IMG/VR virus record: IMGVR_UViG_3300021430_000595
DNA: 64,000 bases
Source of the DNA: a virus
Reading direction: 5' to 3' (one strand)
The notes below the pieces were generated by a model. That model had not been told where the DNA came from. It saw nothing but the letters and a program-made list of their open reading frames with translations, and searched no databases. A program made the translations under genes and the position numbers. Shown here piece by piece: positions 22,795 through 45,607 of this stretch. Each line of letters starts with the position of its first letter. Positions within the stretch are counted from its first letter, which is position 1.

Positions 22795-22869
22795 TGGTGG
22801 CTCCGGTGGGGTTCGAACCCACGACTATCGGTTTTAGAGACCGTAATGTTACCACTACACTACGGAGCC
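22795..22869 (-). tRNA. Amber suppressor tRNA, anticodon CTA
   Basis: Cloverleaf GGCTCCG/CGGAGCC-ACCA; loop CT-CTA-AA in Trp-like arm CGGT/ACCG. Confidence 0.88.
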
Positions 22870-22871
22870 AT

Positions 22872-22945
22872 TGGAGGTCGGGGATGGATTTAAACCACCG
22901 TAAAAAAGCTTGCGGCTTTTCACCTAATCGCTCGGTCACCCGACC
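22872..22945 (-). tRNA. Atypical tRNA-Cys(GCA)
   Basis: U73-CCA; loop CC-GCA-AG lacks U33; T-loop TTTAAAT. Confidence 0.6.
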
Positions 22946-23015
22946 ATTTGTGATTGACAATATCTCTACCATCAATCACAGTACAATATTAGAGATTAGT
23001 TATGATATCTCCAAA

Positions 23016-23354
23016 TTATTTTTCAAGATTTTTTTCAAAATCTTCTTTTTTAGTTTTCTTCTTGGGTACATAACCTCTCTTAACTCGTTCTTTCTGAATT
23101 CTTTTCTTAAAACTTCTGTCCTGAAAATAATTTCGCAATTCTCTTGATGTTTCTTCGTAGGTTTTTTTAATCTCATCGAAAAGTTTCACTTTTTCTTCAT
23201 CAGTCATTTTATTTGTTCTTTTTTCTCTCATACATTCCCACCATTCATTTGAATATCGTTTGTGTTCGGTGCATTCACCTAATAACTTATGAATCTTGTT
23301 CGAGAAAGATGATTTAATCATCATTGTTGGGTTGTGTTGTGTTGTCTTTTTCAT
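23016..23354 (-). CDS. Hypothetical basic protein
   Basis: 112-aa ORF at end of operon. Confidence 0.55.
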   Translation of the reverse strand: MKKTTQHNPTMMIKSSFSNKIHKLLGECTEHKRYSNEWWECMREKRTNKMTDEEKVKLFDEIKKTYEETSRELRNYFQDRSFKKRIQKERVKRGYVPKKKTKKEDFEKNLEK

Positions 23355-23356
23355 TT

Positions 23357-23611
23357 TTAAAAAATTTTAGCTGTTATTATGTTATTATTTTCCTCAATCT
23401 CCAAATTCGCTTTGAATTTTATACTCCCCTTGGTATGAGGGTTATCGGGAGTTTCTTTTGTTGAGAATCCCACACCCGGTGAGACATCAACGTGATGAAC
23501 ATAATAAGTGTCGCCACGACATTTCACAACCCACATTGGGATTGTTGGGTCTTCTAAATGTTTCTTGTTGAAGTGAAAAATAATTTCACATTTTTTGTTA
23601 ATCTACTTCAT
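23357..23611 (-). CDS. 84-codon hypothetical protein with in-frame TAG at codon 3 (MK*INKKCEIIFHFNKKH...)
   Basis: ATG AAG TAG ATT AAC, then open to TAA 23357; fills the gap between neighbours (4 and 2 nt spacing). Confidence 0.75.
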
Positions 23612-23615
23612 GATT

Positions 23616-23975
23616 TTAAAGATTAAATTGTTTATTGTTATTATATTCCTTTAAGGATAAAGGCAATGAGGATGTGTATCTTCTCGTACTTTCAGTTTCG
23701 AGAAAACAAATTGATGTTAGTTGATTCCCGATATCGGGTTCAATAAAGTGAGACACAGGGATACCTGAATCTTCTAACTTAAAAAGTAATTCTTGTAATT
23801 TTTTTTCTGAATCGATGGATAATGAGATGAGAAAACTGTTGTTCCATCGTTTCGACAATTCGGGGTGTTCTAAAATGAACTGAGAGATTGCATGTCCCGA
23901 TTGTGCAATTTGATACCCGGGTTTTAAGTCATTGCGGGTTACGACTACGAGTCTGTTAATCTAATGTCTTTTCAT
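23616..23975 (-). CDS. PTH2-like peptidyl-tRNA hydrolase with in-frame TAG at codon 5
   Basis: MKRH*INRLVVVTRNDLKPGYQIAQSGHA...FIEPDIGNQLT; family motifs lie upstream of the called TTG start. Confidence 0.8.
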
Positions 23976-23996
23976 GATGTTATAAATATTACGGTA

Positions 23997-24004
23997 CAAA
24001 GATA
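23997..24004 (-). promoter_or_regulatory. Bacteroidota -7 promoter element TATCTTTG
   Basis: TAnnTTTG also at 22740, 29149, 29359, 32190, 43268 (-) and 59824 (+). Confidence 0.65.
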
Positions 24005-24029
24005 AAGAAAGTTTTTTAAAAAACAAGCT

Positions 24030-24470
24030 TTATACAAAATTTTTTATTTCTCTTTCAGAATCCCTCTTTTTAATTGTTTCTCTTTTATCATAGAGTTTCT
24101 TACCTCTAGCTAATGCAATTTCAACCTTAACCATACCATTATCACTAAAAAACAAACGATATGGTATGATTGTGATATTATCGGTCAACTCATCTTTTAA
24201 CTTAGTTAATTCTTTTTTAGTTAAAAGAAGTTTTCTATCTCTTGTTGGAGAATGAGAGTAATGCGAACCATCACTTTGTATATTCATGTTCTTAATGAAT
24301 AATTCATGTCCATTGAAAACACAAAACGAATCCGTTAACGATGCTTTACCGGAACGAATAGATTTAACCTCACTACCGGTTAATTGAATACCAGAAATTT
24401 CGGTTCGAATAAATGAATACTCGAACCTTGATTTCCTATTTGTAATTGTTATGTTGGTTTTTAGTTTCAT
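24030..24470 (-). CDS. smpB: SsrA-binding protein
   Basis: NRKSRFEY, GIQLTGSEVKSIR, RKLLL, ARGKKLYDKRETIK. Confidence 0.95.
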   Translation of the reverse strand: MKLKTNITITNRKSRFEYSFIRTEISGIQLTGSEVKSIRSGKASLTDSFCVFNGHELFIKNMNIQSDGSHYSHSPTRDRKLLLTKKELTKLKDELTDNITIIPYRLFFSDNGMVKVEIALARGKKLYDKRETIKKRDSEREIKNFV

Positions 24471-24931
24471 TAGATTCTAACTAAGTGGTTTGCACTATAT
24501 GTTACCATTGCACCTTCGTGTTTGTATCTTACCTTGTAACCCATACCTTCAACCAAACCAACCGCTTGTCTTAAAACTTTGTTTGATTTGTATCTTGGGT
24601 CAGGGTTCAAATCGATATCAATCCAAGTTGCTTTTGGTAAATCGTTGTTTCTTAAAAGTTCTGCAACTTCAACCGCTTTCCAAACCTCACTCATAAGTCT
24701 ATATGATGTGTCCCTCTCAAATGGGGTCGTTTCTTTTGTACAAAGTACGTGTGCGCCTTTACCTTTAGTGTACAGAGCAATAACCACCCCATAAACAGTT
24801 TTTGAATTACTGAATGATTGTGAATCTGAACCAATCAGAATCTCAACATCGGATTTATCCGCTAGGTAGTCTTTGATGTAGGTGATAACATCTGTTATCG
24901 GTTTTCCGTACAATGTTTTAAACGTTTTCAT
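24470..24931 (-). CDS. RNase H-like YkuK (DUF458) family protein
   Basis: IGSDSQ, GKGA, RLMSEV, IDIDLN. Confidence 0.75.
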   Translation of the reverse strand: MKTFKTLYGKPITDVITYIKDYLADKSDVEILIGSDSQSFSNSKTVYGVVIALYTKGKGAHVLCTKETTPFERDTSYRLMSEVWKAVEVAELLRNNDLPKATWIDIDLNPDPRYKSNKVLRQAVGLVEGMGYKVRYKHEGAMVTYSANHLVRI

Positions 24932-24962
24932 GTCATATTCTTTACAATTAATAAATACTTAT

Positions 24963-25051
24963 TGGCGGAGAGAGAGGGGCTCGAACCCTCGCGGCTGTGA
25001 CACCCTATCAGTTTAGCAAACTGACCCCTTCACCAACTTGGGTATCTCTCC
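24963..25051 (-). tRNA. tRNA-Ser(GCT)
   Basis: Cloverleaf, long variable arm, G73-CCA. Confidence 0.92.
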
Positions 25052-25226
25052 ATTGAGTTTTTCTGTACTCTTTCCAATTTCTAATTCCTCGATGCTTCTT
25101 CCAAAAGTTACATCCACTATGAGGTCCACAAATTGGACAAAGTCCCTCATAACTGTCTAACATTTGTCTCTTGAGTATTTTATACACTCTTGAGTTTGTT
25201 GTTGATTCTAGTTTTTCTTTTTTCAT
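25008..25226 (-). CDS. Small Cys/His protein overlapping tRNA-Ser, preceded by amber uORF 25270..25223
   Basis: CPICGPHSGCN; uORF MKKTYDFL*INLQEK* ends in an ATGA overlap. Confidence 0.55.
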   Translation of the reverse strand: MKKEKLESTTNSRVYKILKRQMLDSYEGLCPICGPHSGCNFWKKHRGIRNWKEYRKTQWRDTQVGEGVSLLN

Positions 25227-25287
25227 TTTTCCTGTAGATTAATCTACAAGAAGTCGTATGTTTTTTTCATAATAATAATTTTTGTTG

Positions 25288-25454: not shown

Positions 25455-25856
25455 TTATTTCTTATATCTTTCTTTCCTACCTTTACCTCTTCGACCAAAA
25501 AATTCAGTTAAAGAATGACAGTTAGGACAAAGTAATTCAACGTTTGATAAATCATGATTATGTGGATTTCCATCTATATGATTAATTTGGATTGGGACAA
25601 TTCCGGTGTATTCATTTACTTTATCCCATTCACATAACATACATTTCTCACCAAATTTTTCTATCAAATATTTTTTTGTTATTTCGTGGATGGTGTCACA
25701 CCTTGTATACCTTTCAAAATTATTTTCCTCTAAAGATTTGAAAATATTTTTTCTCTGATAATCAAACTGACATTTATTGTTACAATAAACATTTCTGTTA
25801 GGTATTTCACAACCACAATTCAAACATTGTTTTTCTTTTTTTTCTCTATTTCTCAT
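25455..25856 (-). CDS. HNH endonuclease between two tRNA-Gly genes
   Basis: CMLC, HIDGN, N-VELLCPNCH. Confidence 0.85.
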   Translation of the reverse strand: MRNREKKEKQCLNCGCEIPNRNVYCNNKCQFDYQRKNIFKSLEENNFERYTRCDTIHEITKKYLIEKFGEKCMLCEWDKVNEYTGIVPIQINHIDGNPHNHDLSNVELLCPNCHSLTEFFGRRGKGRKERYKK

Positions 25857-43437: not shown

Positions 43438-45456
43438 TTACCCCTTTTTCTTAAAAATTTTTATTTCACCGTCTTTGAACTTCAGATTTACACCTTCATT
43501 TTCTTTAATGTCATTACGAAGAATCGCATCACTTAGAAAATCTTCACAAAGATTTTGAATGATTCTTTTAATTGGTCTAGCACCAAAATCTTCTTGTGTA
43601 TTTAATTCTGAAATTCTCTCGACAATCGTTTTATCAAAAGAAATTTTGTAGTTCTTCTCTTTAAGTCTTGAAATTAGTTTATCCAATTCGATACCAATAA
43701 TCTTATGGATTGTTTCTTTATTTAAAGAATTGAAACTAATAATATCGTCAATTCTGTTTAAAAATTCGGGGTTGAAGTGTTGTTTAAGTGATTTTTGAAC
43801 TATAGATTTTTTAACCTCATAGTTTTGTGTGTCACTAAATGATGTGTTAAATCCAACACCTTTACCAAACTCAGATACTTTTTTAGCACCAATGTTTGAT
43901 GTCATAATCACAATTGTGTTTGTGAAGTTAATCTTTCTTCCAAAAGAATCTGTTAAATGTCCTTCATCTAAAATCTGTAGAAGGATGTTGAACACATCTT
44001 TATGTGCTTTTTCAACCTCATCAAATAGGACAACCGCAAATGGGTTATTTTTGATTTTTTCGGTTAATTGACCACCTTCGTCATAACCAACATAACCCGG
44101 AGGAGAACCGATTAATTTTGCAACATTGTGTTTCTCCATATATTCACTCATATCTACACGGATTACTTTTTCAGGGTCTCCAAATAACACCTCAGCAATT
44201 GTTTTTGCCAAGTAAGTTTTACCGACACCTGTTGAACCTAAGAAGATAAATGAACCAATTGGTTTGTTTGCATCTTTAATACCAACACGATTTCTTCTGA
44301 TTGATTTTGAAATGATTGAGATTGCTTCATCTTGACCAATTACCTTAGATTTTAATCTTTCCTCAAGTGCCAATAAGTTGTTAATCTCGTTACTGTCCAC
44401 TTTTGAAATTGGTACACCCGTCATTTGTGAAACAATTTCATAAACATCATTTACCGTAACAGGAACTTTATTATTCTTTTGAGATTCTAACCACTTCTTT
44501 TTCTCATCCTCAAGTTTAGTGGTGATTTTCCTTTCTTCATCTCTTAGTTTTGCAGCTTGCTCATAGTTCTGACTTTTAACAACTTGAATCTTTCTTTCTT
44601 TAATTTCGTCAGATTCTTTTTTAAGTTTTTCTATTGATTCAGGAATTTTTGTGTTGATTTTTTTATCAGAACCTAATTCGTCTAAAATGTCAATCGCCTT
44701 ATCAGGAAATTGTCTATCGGTGATGTATCTTGAAGATAGATTCACAATAGTTTCAGTGACACCATCTTCGTAATGTACTTTATGGAAACTCTCATATGAA
44801 CCTTTTAGATTGTTTAATATCTGTATGGTTTCATTTTTTGATGGTTCTTTTAAGACAATTTTTTGGAATCGTCTAACTAATGCGGCATCCTTTTCAATGT
44901 GTTTTTTAAACTCATCGAATGTTGTTGCTCCAATACATTGTATTTCACCTCTAGCCAATGCAGGTTTTAAAATATTTGCTGCGTCCATTGAACCACTAGC
45001 ATTACCCGCACCAACCATTGTGTGTATTTCATCTATAAAAACAATCACATTTGGTTCGTTTTGTAGTTCATTTAGAATTGCTTTAATTCTTTCTTCAAAC
45101 TGACCCCTGTACTTTGTACCGGCAACTAATGAGGTTAAATCTAAAGACATTATTCTTTTATCTAAAAGGTTTGATGGGCATTCACCTTTTACAATTAATA
45201 ATGCTAGTTTTTCAACCAATGCTGATTTACCAACACCAGCATCACCTACGATAACTACATTGTTCTTTTTCTTTCTTGATAGGATTTGTGCGATTCTCTT
45301 AACTTCAGAATCCCTACCAACAACGGGGTCAATTTTACCTTCCTCTGCTAATTTATTCAAGTCTCTTGAAAAATTATCAAGTATTGGAGTGGTTGAACCT
45401 TTTCTTGTCTTTTTTGGGTTTGATACTTGACCCTCTTCAAAAAAATCTACTGACAT
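43438..45456 (-). CDS. clpC: ClpC-like AAA+ ATPase lacking the N-terminal domain
   Basis: Walker A GDAGVGKS and GSTGVGKT; UVR-like middle domain; GSPPGYVGY. Confidence 0.88.
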   Translation of the reverse strand: MSVDFFEEGQVSNPKKTRKGSTTPILDNFSRDLNKLAEEGKIDPVVGRDSEVKRIAQILSRKKKNNVVIVGDAGVGKSALVEKLALLIVKGECPSNLLDKRIMSLDLTSLVAGTKYRGQFEERIKAILNELQNEPNVIVFIDEIHTMVGAGNASGSMDAANILKPALARGEIQCIGATTFDEFKKHIEKDAALVRRFQKIVLKEPSKNETIQILNNLKGSYESFHKVHYEDGVTETIVNLSSRYITDRQFPDKAIDILDELGSDKKINTKIPESIEKLKKESDEIKERKIQVVKSQNYEQAAKLRDEERKITTKLEDEKKKWLESQKNNKVPVTVNDVYEIVSQMTGVPISKVDSNEINNLLALEERLKSKVIGQDEAISIISKSIRRNRVGIKDANKPIGSFIFLGSTGVGKTYLAKTIAEVLFGDPEKVIRVDMSEYMEKHNVAKLIGSPPGYVGYDEGGQLTEKIKNNPFAVVLFDEVEKAHKDVFNILLQILDEGHLTDSFGRKINFTNTIVIMTSNIGAKKVSEFGKGVGFNTSFSDTQNYEVKKSIVQKSLKQHFNPEFLNRIDDIISFNSLNKETIHKIIGIELDKLISRLKEKNYKISFDKTIVERISELNTQEDFGARPIKRIIQNLCEDFLSDAILRNDIKENEGVNLKFKDGEIKIFKKKG

Positions 45457-45607
45457 GTTAAATTACTTTTTGTAAGTATACGGAAAATTATTTCAAAAAA
45501 CAAATAATAGACATTTTTTCAGTTGTATAAAGATATAACTGTCATATTGTCTATTTTTCTTATTTGGTGCATCATTTGATTATCCTTTTTTAAAAAAAGG
45601 ATTAACT

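What the first reader, a model, noticed from the sequence alone, without database searches (positions are those of the whole stretch)
22795..25270. Amber-gated gene set: suppressor tRNA(CUA) plus three frames with an early TAG in identical TAG-ATT-AAY context
Seen: (a) 23975..23616 ATG AAA AGA CAT TAG ATT AAC, a PTH2-like hydrolase; (b) 23611..23357 ATG AAG TAG ATT AAC, an 84-codon gene filling the operon gap; (c) 25270 MKKTYDFL TAG ATT AAT, whose read-through ends in an ATGA overlap with the 25226 gene. All lie within about 2.5 kb of a CUA-anticodon tRNA, on the same strand. Other genes are intact in code 11, so this is not genome-wide recoding. Inference: a programmed read-through switch that makes these proteins only when UAG is suppressed or RF1 activity falls. 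Gating a peptidyl-tRNA hydrolase on termination efficiency would be a feedback loop analogous to RF2 autoregulation.
Basis: partly seen in the sequence, partly recalled or inferred. Interest (0 to 1): 0.9.

Follow-up and report, generated by a model that had tools for sequence, protein, structure and literature searches.

The report
Stop-codon-gated phage genes with own tRNA
A phage that otherwise uses the normal genetic code keeps a UAG stop a few codons into two small neighbouring genes and encodes, in the same operon, a tRNA that reads UAG; over a hundred distant phages do the same, so these two proteins are probably made only when that tRNA overrides the stop.

Summary
The window is part of an AT-rich phage with a 28-tRNA array. 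One minus-strand operon holds a Pth2-like hydrolase gene (TAG at codon 5), an 84-codon gene of unknown function (TAG at codon 3), a 112-codon ORF, a Cys-like tRNA and a canonical tRNA(CUA).

No other long ORF in the 64 kb has an in-frame TAG. Terminase, portal and major head genes are intact, so this is not genome-wide recoding.

In IMG/VR the early TAG is conserved in 78 of 87 distinct Pth2-like genes and about 49 of 67 genes of the 84-aa family. It is always preceded by an in-frame ATG and is almost never joined by a second TAG. No family member in the first 91 loci plus the window has TGA or TAA at that place. The one TAA variant found in the second locus set lies in a record that carries a tRNA(UUA). 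A tRNA(CUA) lies on the same strand within 3-4 kb in about 80% of loci.

Case (c) is a conserved 8-codon mini-ORF inside a hairpin, and one relative has TGA as its stop.

Best reading: a tRNA-dependent translational gate. There is no experimental evidence, and the function of the 84-aa protein is unknown. I found no published description. The scan has already noted this pattern on other DNA (295 notes in at least 176 genomes).

The parts
22795..22869 (-). tRNA with anticodon CUA (amber suppressor). Canonical cloverleaf, anticodon loop CUCUAAA, discriminator A73, CCA encoded.
   Evidence: ARAGORN; Rfam RF00005 66.9 bits, full length. The loop CUCUAAA is found in 50 of 64 distinct CUA tRNAs of related loci.
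22875..22945 (-). Extra tRNA missed by ARAGORN, 5 nt upstream of the suppressor. By my reading of the sequence it has anticodon GCA, C33 and U73, so it is Cys-like.
   Evidence: Rfam RF00005 44 bits. Relatives have tRNA-Cys(GCA) directly before the CUA tRNA (L004, L016, L025, L030).
23016..23354 (-). 112-codon ORF of unknown function, the third gene of the presumed operon. It has no TAG.
   Evidence: ORF list; no Pfam or PHROG match.
23357..23611 (-). 84-codon gene of an unnamed, highly conserved phage family (P0002). TAG is codon 3, at 23603-23605.
   Evidence: AF2 model pLDDT 90.7, all-beta. No informative structural match.
23616..23975 (-). Pth2-like hydrolase gene (P0001). TAG is codon 5, at 23961-23963, in a disordered 8-residue leader ahead of the fold.
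23995..24004 (-). Bacteroidota-type promoter-like element TATCTTTGTA about 20 nt before the Pth2-like ATG. I take it as the likely start of the operon (inferred).
   Evidence: The same element is conserved before the gene in L001-L004. The only terminator-like site on this strand between here and the tRNA is a weak 5-pair one inside the 84-codon gene.
24030..24470 (-). Phage-encoded SmpB (the tmRNA partner), immediately upstream. Listed as context for a ribosome-rescue theme.
   Evidence: Pfam PF01668, E 1.4e-47.
25224..25270 (-). Case (c): an 8-codon mini-ORF ending in TAG inside a 10-bp hairpin. It is not part of the gate.

Best explanation
This is a lock-and-key translational gate. Ribosomes start at the ATG of the Pth2-like gene and of the 84-codon gene and meet UAG after 4 and 2 sense codons. 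They go on only if the phage's own tRNA(CUA), encoded at the end of the same operon, decodes the UAG before RF1 terminates. Output of both proteins would therefore follow the amount of charged suppressor tRNA relative to RF1 activity.

Shown here: the anatomy, the conservation of the TAG, its exclusivity and its linkage to the tRNA.

Inferred: that the tRNA is made, charged and used. The amino acid is unknown; Gln, Lys or Trp are plausible from E. coli precedent. It is also inferred that the gate is regulatory, acting as a delay or as dosage coupling. Placing the stop within the first 2-8 codons keeps abortive products tiny. It may also favour the tRNA over RF1.

My best guess at purpose is that the two proteins deal with side effects of UAG read-through or of early drop-off, that is peptidyl-tRNA recycling and ribosome rescue. 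This fits the adjacent phage SmpB. It is speculation.
For: 1. The TAG is conserved at the 5' end. 78 of 87 distinct Pth2-like genes have TAG at codon 2-8. About 49 of 67 distinct genes of the 84-aa family have it 1-6 codons after the nearest in-frame ATG. All follow an in-frame ATG, and 46 of 49 have no other TAG.

2. An unbiased scan of 91 loci plus the window for ATG, up to 9 codons, a stop, then an ORF of at least 55 codons found only these two families, and only with TAG: 65 and 47 hits, against 0 for TGA and 0 for TAA.

3. A tRNA(CUA) lies on the same strand within the locus in 52 of 67 and 64 of 79 loci. Two complete records without one nearby have it elsewhere in the genome.

4. Covariation: the one member with an early TAA (L136) lies in a record that has a tRNA(UUA).

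5. TAG-less homologs of the 84-aa protein start M-L-N-I, so the TAG aligns with residue 3 of a translated N-terminus.

6. The base after TAG is A 62, G 14, C 2, T 0 in the Pth2-like set and A 42, G 5, C 2, T 0 in the 84-aa family. A 3' purine is the context known, from my memory of the E. coli literature, to favour amber suppression.

7. The window is otherwise standard code. TAG is a rare terminator (3 of 72 ORFs) with back-up stops 0, 3 and 9 codons on.

8. The suppressor is a high-scoring canonical tRNA with the loop CUCUAAA.
Against: There are no expression, proteomic or charging data. About 70% of members have ATT or ATA right after the TAG, against an ATT background of 5%. I cannot explain this, and it leaves room for some initiation or re-initiation there. 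The tRNA and its targets appear to be co-transcribed, so a timing role is not obvious. Some members of the 84-aa family, and the mycobacteriophage Pth2-like genes, lack the gate, so it is not obligatory. A strong suppressor would also extend host proteins that end in UAG. The L136 record uses TAA as its main stop yet has an ochre suppressor, which argues that suppression is weak or depends on context.
Confidence: 0.7

Rival explanations
1. Mini-ORF plus re-initiation. ATG, 1-4 codons and TAG form a tiny upstream ORF. Ribosomes terminate at UAG and restart at the adjacent AUU or AUA, so the proteins begin after the TAG and no suppressor is needed.
For: ATT, ATA or ATC follows the TAG in 36 of 49 genes of the 84-aa family. 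ATT, ATA or ATG follows it in 54 of 78 Pth2-like genes. ATT is 60% there against a 5% background. The Pth2 fold begins only at residue 9, so the leader is dispensable for folding.
Against: The stop is TAG in all 112 family hits of the first locus set, and never TGA or TAA, although TAA ends 60 of 72 ORFs in the window. It is linked to a tRNA(CUA), and the one TAA case comes with a tRNA(UUA). About a quarter to a third of members have AAC, AAT, CAC, ACA or GTN after the TAG and no start codon before the conserved first strand. In TAG-less homologs the Ile is an ordinary residue 4.
Confidence: 0.1
2. No regulation. The phage suppresses UAG efficiently, TAG is simply a rare sense codon, and the two TAGs are frozen accidents at an early stage of code-15 evolution.
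For: Low GC, TAG depleted as a stop and an acquired suppressor tRNA match the proposed route to recoding (preprint 10.1101/2021.08.26.457843). Lak and other recoded phages carry Pth2-like homologs.
Against: Neutral TAGs should drift to sense codons and should appear at other positions and in other genes. Instead one TAG is kept at the 5' end across very deep divergence, in two unrelated families, and nowhere else in 64 kb. The structural genes, which are recoded first in code-15 phages, have none.
Confidence: 0.12
3. The minigenes themselves are the functional unit. As with lambda bar, ATG-x-TAG causes peptidyl-tRNA drop-off that ties up particular host tRNAs. The downstream hydrolase is made by occasional read-through as the phage's own remedy.
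For: The form matches toxic minigenes of 2-8 codons. Drop-off is commonest in early elongation and is repaired by Pth (PMC10192219 and PMC2490762, abstracts only). A hydrolase gene carries the minigene, and SmpB lies next door.
Against: The last sense codon before TAG is highly variable, so no particular tRNA is targeted. This model does not explain the exclusive use of TAG or the linked tRNA(CUA).
Confidence: 0.05
4. Broken genes or sequencing errors.
For: Gene callers truncate or skip these ORFs. The homolog in the cultured Rhizobium phage RHph_I1_18 is unannotated.
Against: The same TAG is present in more than 100 independent contigs, while the rest of each ORF stays intact and conserved.
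Confidence: 0.01

Closest known systems
Stop-codon-recoded phages (code 15, TAG read as Gln) with phage suppressor tRNAs: crAss-like, Lak and others (preprint 10.1101/2021.08.26.457843; PMC9523058; PMC7886860)
   Same: A phage-encoded tRNA(CUA), in-frame TAG in phage genes, low GC with TAG depleted as a terminator, and a proposed role in controlling translation.
   Different: There, many genes carry many TAGs, mainly structural and lysis genes. Here terminase, portal and major head genes have none. Exactly two small genes next to the tRNA carry one TAG each, fixed at codons 2-8 across very distant phages.
prfB (RF2) autoregulation through an early in-frame UGA
   Same: An in-frame stop early in a translation-related gene makes output depend on how well that stop is recognised.
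   Different: prfB escapes by a +1 frameshift and senses its own product. Here the frame is unchanged, escape needs a dedicated tRNA, and no link between the products and RF1 is shown.
Pyrrolysine decoding (pylT with a conserved single UAG in methyltransferase genes)
   Same: A dedicated CUA tRNA is encoded near genes that keep one conserved in-frame UAG.
   Different: The tRNA here is a canonical cloverleaf, not pylT-shaped. The UAG lies in a disordered leader, not at an active site. I did not look for pylS or pylBCD.
Lambda bar and other toxic minigenes (PMC2490762)
   Same: ATG, 1-4 codons and a stop, with a functional connection to peptidyl-tRNA hydrolase.
   Different: Here a conserved ORF continues in frame after the stop, the stop is always UAG, and a matching tRNA is present.
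Orphan suppressor tRNAs of standard-code cultured phages (XacN1, PMC5852040; Summit, PMC9022506)
   Same: Standard-code phages that carry tRNA(CUA).
   Different: Those papers state that no target genes could be identified (abstract). This module supplies candidate targets.

Membership tests
Code-15 (TAG-recoded) phage genome | Many genes, above all structural and lysis genes, carry in-frame TAG | tested here: not met
   Only 2 ORFs in 64 kb need TAG read-through. Terminase, portal and major head genes have none. Only 64 kb of a probably larger genome was seen.
Code-15 (TAG-recoded) phage genome | Phage-encoded tRNA with anticodon CUA | tested here: met
Pth2 peptidyl-tRNA hydrolase (PF01981) | Sequence profile match over the whole domain | tested here: met
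   Pfam 25.5 bits against a cut-off of 23. Family profile against PDB 2zv3 E 2e-10, positions 8-108 to residues 2-114.
Pth2 peptidyl-tRNA hydrolase (PF01981) | Pth2/Bit1 fold | tested here: met
   AF2 pLDDT 89.9. The 15 Foldseek matches with E up to 0.001 are Pth2/Bit1 structures or uncharacterised proteins of that fold. Best is 2zv3, TM 0.71, rmsd 2.2 A.
Pth2 peptidyl-tRNA hydrolase (PF01981) | Catalytic residues (the Lys of the GKGK loop and the Asp of the DAG motif, recalled from work on archaeal Pth2) | tested here: inconclusive
   In the alignment to 2zv3 the GKGK loop is shortened and has no Lys. An invariant Glu79 aligns with the Asp. R14, D16, Q25, H28, E79, D81 and T87 are invariant in the phage family. 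Activity is unknown.
Pyrrolysine system | pylT-type tRNA architecture (as I recall it: short D-loop, 3-nt variable loop, no standard T-loop) | tested here: not met
   Full-length 66.9-bit match to the general tRNA model, with a standard D-loop and a GGUUCGAA T-loop.
Pyrrolysine system | pylS and pylBCD genes nearby | not tested
   Only selected ORFs of the window were scanned against Pfam and PHROGs.
prfB-type programmed frameshift | The downstream ORF lies in the +1 frame relative to the start | tested here: not met
   Both ORFs continue in the zero frame after the TAG.
Lambda bar-type minigene | A stand-alone 2-8 codon ORF with no coding continuation | tested here: not met
   Conserved protein domains follow in frame.

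The most novel reading that the evidence does not exclude
The 84-aa protein acts on UAG decoding itself, for instance by antagonising RF1 or by helping the suppressor tRNA. It is 50-98% identical across phages whose ribosome-binding signals differ, which suggests different hosts, and its gene usually lies within 4 kb of a same-strand tRNA(CUA), in 52 of 67 loci. With its own gene gated by UAG, the module would then be an autocatalytic switch that flips the infected cell into a UAG-read-through state.
Probability: 0.1. Interest if true: 0.92.

Novelty: new variant of a known kind. Interest (0 to 1): 0.74.

Why it matters
Many standard-code phages, cultured ones included, carry amber-suppressor tRNAs with no known target (XacN1, Summit). 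This module offers a concrete and testable target set. It would be a natural, compact, tRNA-operated translational switch found in over a hundred phage lineages. The pattern also explains why gene callers miss or truncate these genes. It bears on how stop-codon recoding begins in phages, because here a suppressor tRNA has a selected job before any wider recoding. It also points to an extremely conserved 84-aa protein with no informative structural match that is tied to suppressor tRNAs.

Tried and rejected
1. Nucleotide search of the region against cultured phages found only tRNA matches.

2. Amino-acid identity of the suppressor: nearest-neighbour comparison with 241 other phage tRNAs was noisy. 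The best match was a Trp tRNA with alignment score 32, about 68% identity. I do not assign an identity.

3. Function of the 84-aa protein: Pfam and PHROGs gave nothing. Atlas feature hits were all below 0.85. Foldseek against PDB gave nothing at E up to 0.001. VIA-align wide gave a best Z of 3.5, with scattered OB-fold proteins near Z 2.5. BFVD returned only uncharacterised phage proteins. The atlas fold search failed.

4. The extra C-terminal domain of the 185-210 aa long forms has no Pfam match. It shows no relation to the Pth2-like family (hhalign probability 2%), to any PDB sequence or to the window's 112-aa ORF.

I did not resend trimmed versions.

7. Sigma-70 promoter and terminator scans were at chance level. 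The motif TANNTTTGTA is not enriched window-wide.

8. In two complete records without a called tRNA(CUA) I found only a non-canonical tRNA-like element with a CUCUAAA loop, just upstream of the Pth2-like gene. Neither ARAGORN nor Rfam accepts it.
Full report
**What the window is.** It is 64 kb of AT-rich DNA, about 32% G+C. It carries 27 tRNA genes called by ARAGORN, all on the minus strand between 22.8 and 31.8 kb, plus one more found by Rfam at 22875-22945. It encodes a large terminase, a portal and a major head protein, so it is a phage. Promoter-like TAyCTTTGTA elements before several minus-strand genes (for relatives) suggest a Bacteroidota-type host. This is inferred. No whole genome is held, and no cultured phage is close at the DNA level.

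**The observation.** The minus strand reads, in order:
- an RNase H-like gene (PF04308)
- SmpB (PF01668, E 1e-47)
- a promoter-like element
- a Pth2-like gene, ATG AAA AGA CAT TAG ATT AAC...
- five bases later an 84-codon gene, ATG AAG TAG ATT AAC...
- a 112-codon ORF
- a Cys-like tRNA
- a tRNA with anticodon CUA

The CUA tRNA is the best-scoring tRNA of the region (66.9 bits) and has the loop CUCUAAA.

Elsewhere the window is standard code. Of 72 ORFs of at least 70 aa, 60 end in TAA, 9 in TGA and 3 in TAG, and those three have back-up stops 0, 3 and 9 codons further on. No other long ORF contains a TAG. A mechanical scan for ATG, up to 8 codons, TAG and a long ORF returns only these two genes plus chance hits in tRNA DNA or wrong frames.

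**Case (c) is different.** The 8-codon ORF after tRNA-Gln ends in a TAG that sits inside a 10-bp hairpin. Three relatives keep the mini-ORF and the hairpin with compensatory changes. Their stops are TAG, TAG and TGA. It is a conserved leader or hairpin element, not an amber gate.

**Conservation of the Pth2-like gate.** IMG/VR holds many relatives of both proteins. Across 87 distinct Pth2-like genes:
- 78 have TAG at codon 2-8, mostly 3-5, after an in-frame ATG
- one has TAA
- eight have no early stop; these are fusions, one canonical GKGK-type Pth2, other ungated members and one spurious motif hit

**Conservation of the 84-aa family gate.** Across 67 distinct genes, about 49 have TAG 1-6 codons after the nearest in-frame ATG, and 46 of those have no other TAG. 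TAG-less members begin M-L-N-I, so the TAG aligns with residue 3 of a translated N-terminus.

**Unbiased scan.** A scan of the first 91 loci plus the window for any early stop followed by an ORF found just these two families, and only with TAG: 65 and 47 hits, none with TGA or TAA. Where the 84-aa gene has lost its TAG, the Pth2-like gene directly upstream still has one.

**Link to the tRNA.** A tRNA(CUA) lies on the same strand inside the 6-8 kb locus in 52 of 67 and 64 of 79 cases. Of five large records without one nearby:
- two have a canonical one elsewhere
- two have only a non-canonical tRNA-like element with a CUCUAAA loop just before the Pth2-like gene
- one is a 30%-complete fragment

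The single TAA variant (L136, ATG AAA GAA ACA TAA ATT) lies in a 675-kb record that carries a tRNA(UUA). This is one case of stop and anticodon changing together. That record still uses TAA as its usual terminator, which suggests that suppression is weak or depends on context.

**What the proteins are.** The first is a true Pth2-superfamily member. A family profile matches PDB 2zv3 at E 2e-10 over the whole domain. The AF2 model (pLDDT 89.9) superposes on Pth2/Bit1 structures at TM 0.7. The fold starts at residue 9, so the TAG lies in a disordered leader where any amino acid would do. The GKGK lysine of archaeal Pth2 is absent, and an invariant Glu aligns with the catalytic Asp. Hydrolase activity is therefore plausible but unproven.

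The 84-aa protein is strikingly conserved. It is 50-98% identical across phages whose ribosome-binding signals differ. It is 70% identical over the aligned 63 residues to a cultured Rhizobium phage. Its neighbour, the Pth2-like protein, is only 25-89% identical to the window's copy across related loci. It folds with high confidence (pLDDT 90.7) into a small all-beta domain with no informative match. The near-length protein search found 861 relatives, none of those listed with a functional name. Some members carry an extra C-terminal domain and an acidic tail.

**How it most likely works.** Ribosomes start at the ATG, reach UAG in frame and continue only if the suppressor decodes it. The evidence for this:
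- The ATG-TAG phase relation is kept in all 78 Pth2-like cases.
- TAG is used exclusively, in genomes whose normal stop is TAA.
- The gene is linked to a tRNA(CUA).
- The one TAA case comes with a tRNA(UUA).
- The base after the TAG is a purine in 76 of 78 and 47 of 49 cases. These counts are not phylogenetically independent.

About a quarter to a third of members have AAC, AAT, CAC, ACA or GTN there. The strong excess of ATT (60% against a 5% background) remains unexplained, and some re-initiation at AUU cannot be excluded.

Why the stop is so early is inferred. Abortive products would be 1-7 residues long. Early elongation is also the stage at which peptidyl-tRNA drop-off is commonest and is repaired by Pth (PMC10192219). 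That gives a hydrolase gene with an early stop an obvious thematic link.

The purpose of the gate is not shown. I favour a coupling of the dosage of these two proteins to suppressor activity.

**Literature.** The main survey of phage recoding describes suppressor tRNAs in recoded phages and in some standard-code relatives, and a 'code change module' of tRNA, synthetase and release factor. A term search of that paper returned no mention of an early-TAG gene pair. Papers on XacN1 and Summit state that no targets for their suppressor tRNAs were found. Four full-text searches found no description of this module.

**Earlier notes of this scan.** The pattern has been noted many times on other DNA: 295 notes in at least 176 genomes. 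I re-derived the conservation, the exclusivity of TAG and one instance of stop-anticodon covariation independently here.

**Verdict.** The interpretation as an amber gate is well supported by comparative evidence. The feedback logic is not established.

Noticed in passing
window 22875-22945 (-): A 28th tRNA that ARAGORN missed (Rfam 44 bits). By my reading it has anticodon GCA, U73 and an unusual C33. tRNA-Cys(GCA) is the commonest isotype near the module in related loci (34 of 241 distinct tRNAs) and often directly abuts the CUA tRNA or the 84-codon gene. I cannot explain this.
   Followed up: partly
window 25224-25270 (-); L001:3073-3150, L002:502-580, L004:2668-2750: A conserved 8-codon mini-ORF (MKK..DF.) whose stop lies in a hairpin with compensatory changes. 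It sits directly before the next gene's ATG and just after tRNA-Gln. It may be a leader-peptide or translational-coupling element.
   Followed up: partly
window 24030-24470 (-): A phage-encoded SmpB, although ARAGORN found no tmRNA in the window. A more distant relative (L010) has a tmRNA next to a fused Pth2-like gene and a tRNA(CUA).
   Followed up: no
L136:2980-3330 and L177:1485-1558 (one 675-kb IMG/VR record): A Pth2-like gene with an early TAA instead of TAG, in a record that has a tRNA(UUA) about 19 kb away on the other strand yet uses TAA as its main terminator. The next ORF also begins ATG AAA GAC ACA TAA ATT.
   Followed up: partly
L191:1460-1545 and L193:1490-1570 (-): Non-canonical tRNA-like elements with a CUCUAAA loop, a GGTTCGA T-loop and, by eye, an 8-bp acceptor with a 4-bp T-stem. 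They lie immediately upstream of amber-gated Pth2-like genes in two complete phage records of about 350-360 kb. Neither ARAGORN nor Rfam calls them.
   Followed up: partly
L052, L061, L063, L086 and about 25 other loci (alignments A1, A4): Long forms (185-210 aa) of the 84-aa family carry an extra conserved domain of about 100 aa of unknown fold and an acidic D/E tail. These loci have no Pth2-like gene within 4 kb.
   Followed up: partly
L092:2484-2730 (Rhizobium phage RHph_I1_18, MN988519): This cultured phage has an unannotated member of the 84-aa family with TAG at codon 6, followed closely by an annotated tRNA(cta). Agrobacterium phage Atu_ph07 and Sinorhizobium phage Phosso have the domain as the C-terminal part of an ORF of about 175 aa. 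In Phosso a gene annotated as peptidyl-tRNA hydrolase lies two genes upstream, and Atu_ph07 has an unnamed ORF at the matching position.
   Followed up: partly
window 25008-25226 (-) against tRNA-Ser 24963-25051 (-): The 72-codon ORF downstream of the mini-ORF overlaps the tRNA-Ser gene by 44 nt. Its true end, or its reality as a gene, is doubtful.
   Followed up: no
window 43441-45462 (-) and 25455-25856 (-): A Lon-like ATP-dependent protease (phrog_4871, E 1e-245), and an ORF inside the tRNA array with a weak HNH-endonuclease match (17.6 bits, below the Pfam cut-off of 21.4).
   Followed up: no
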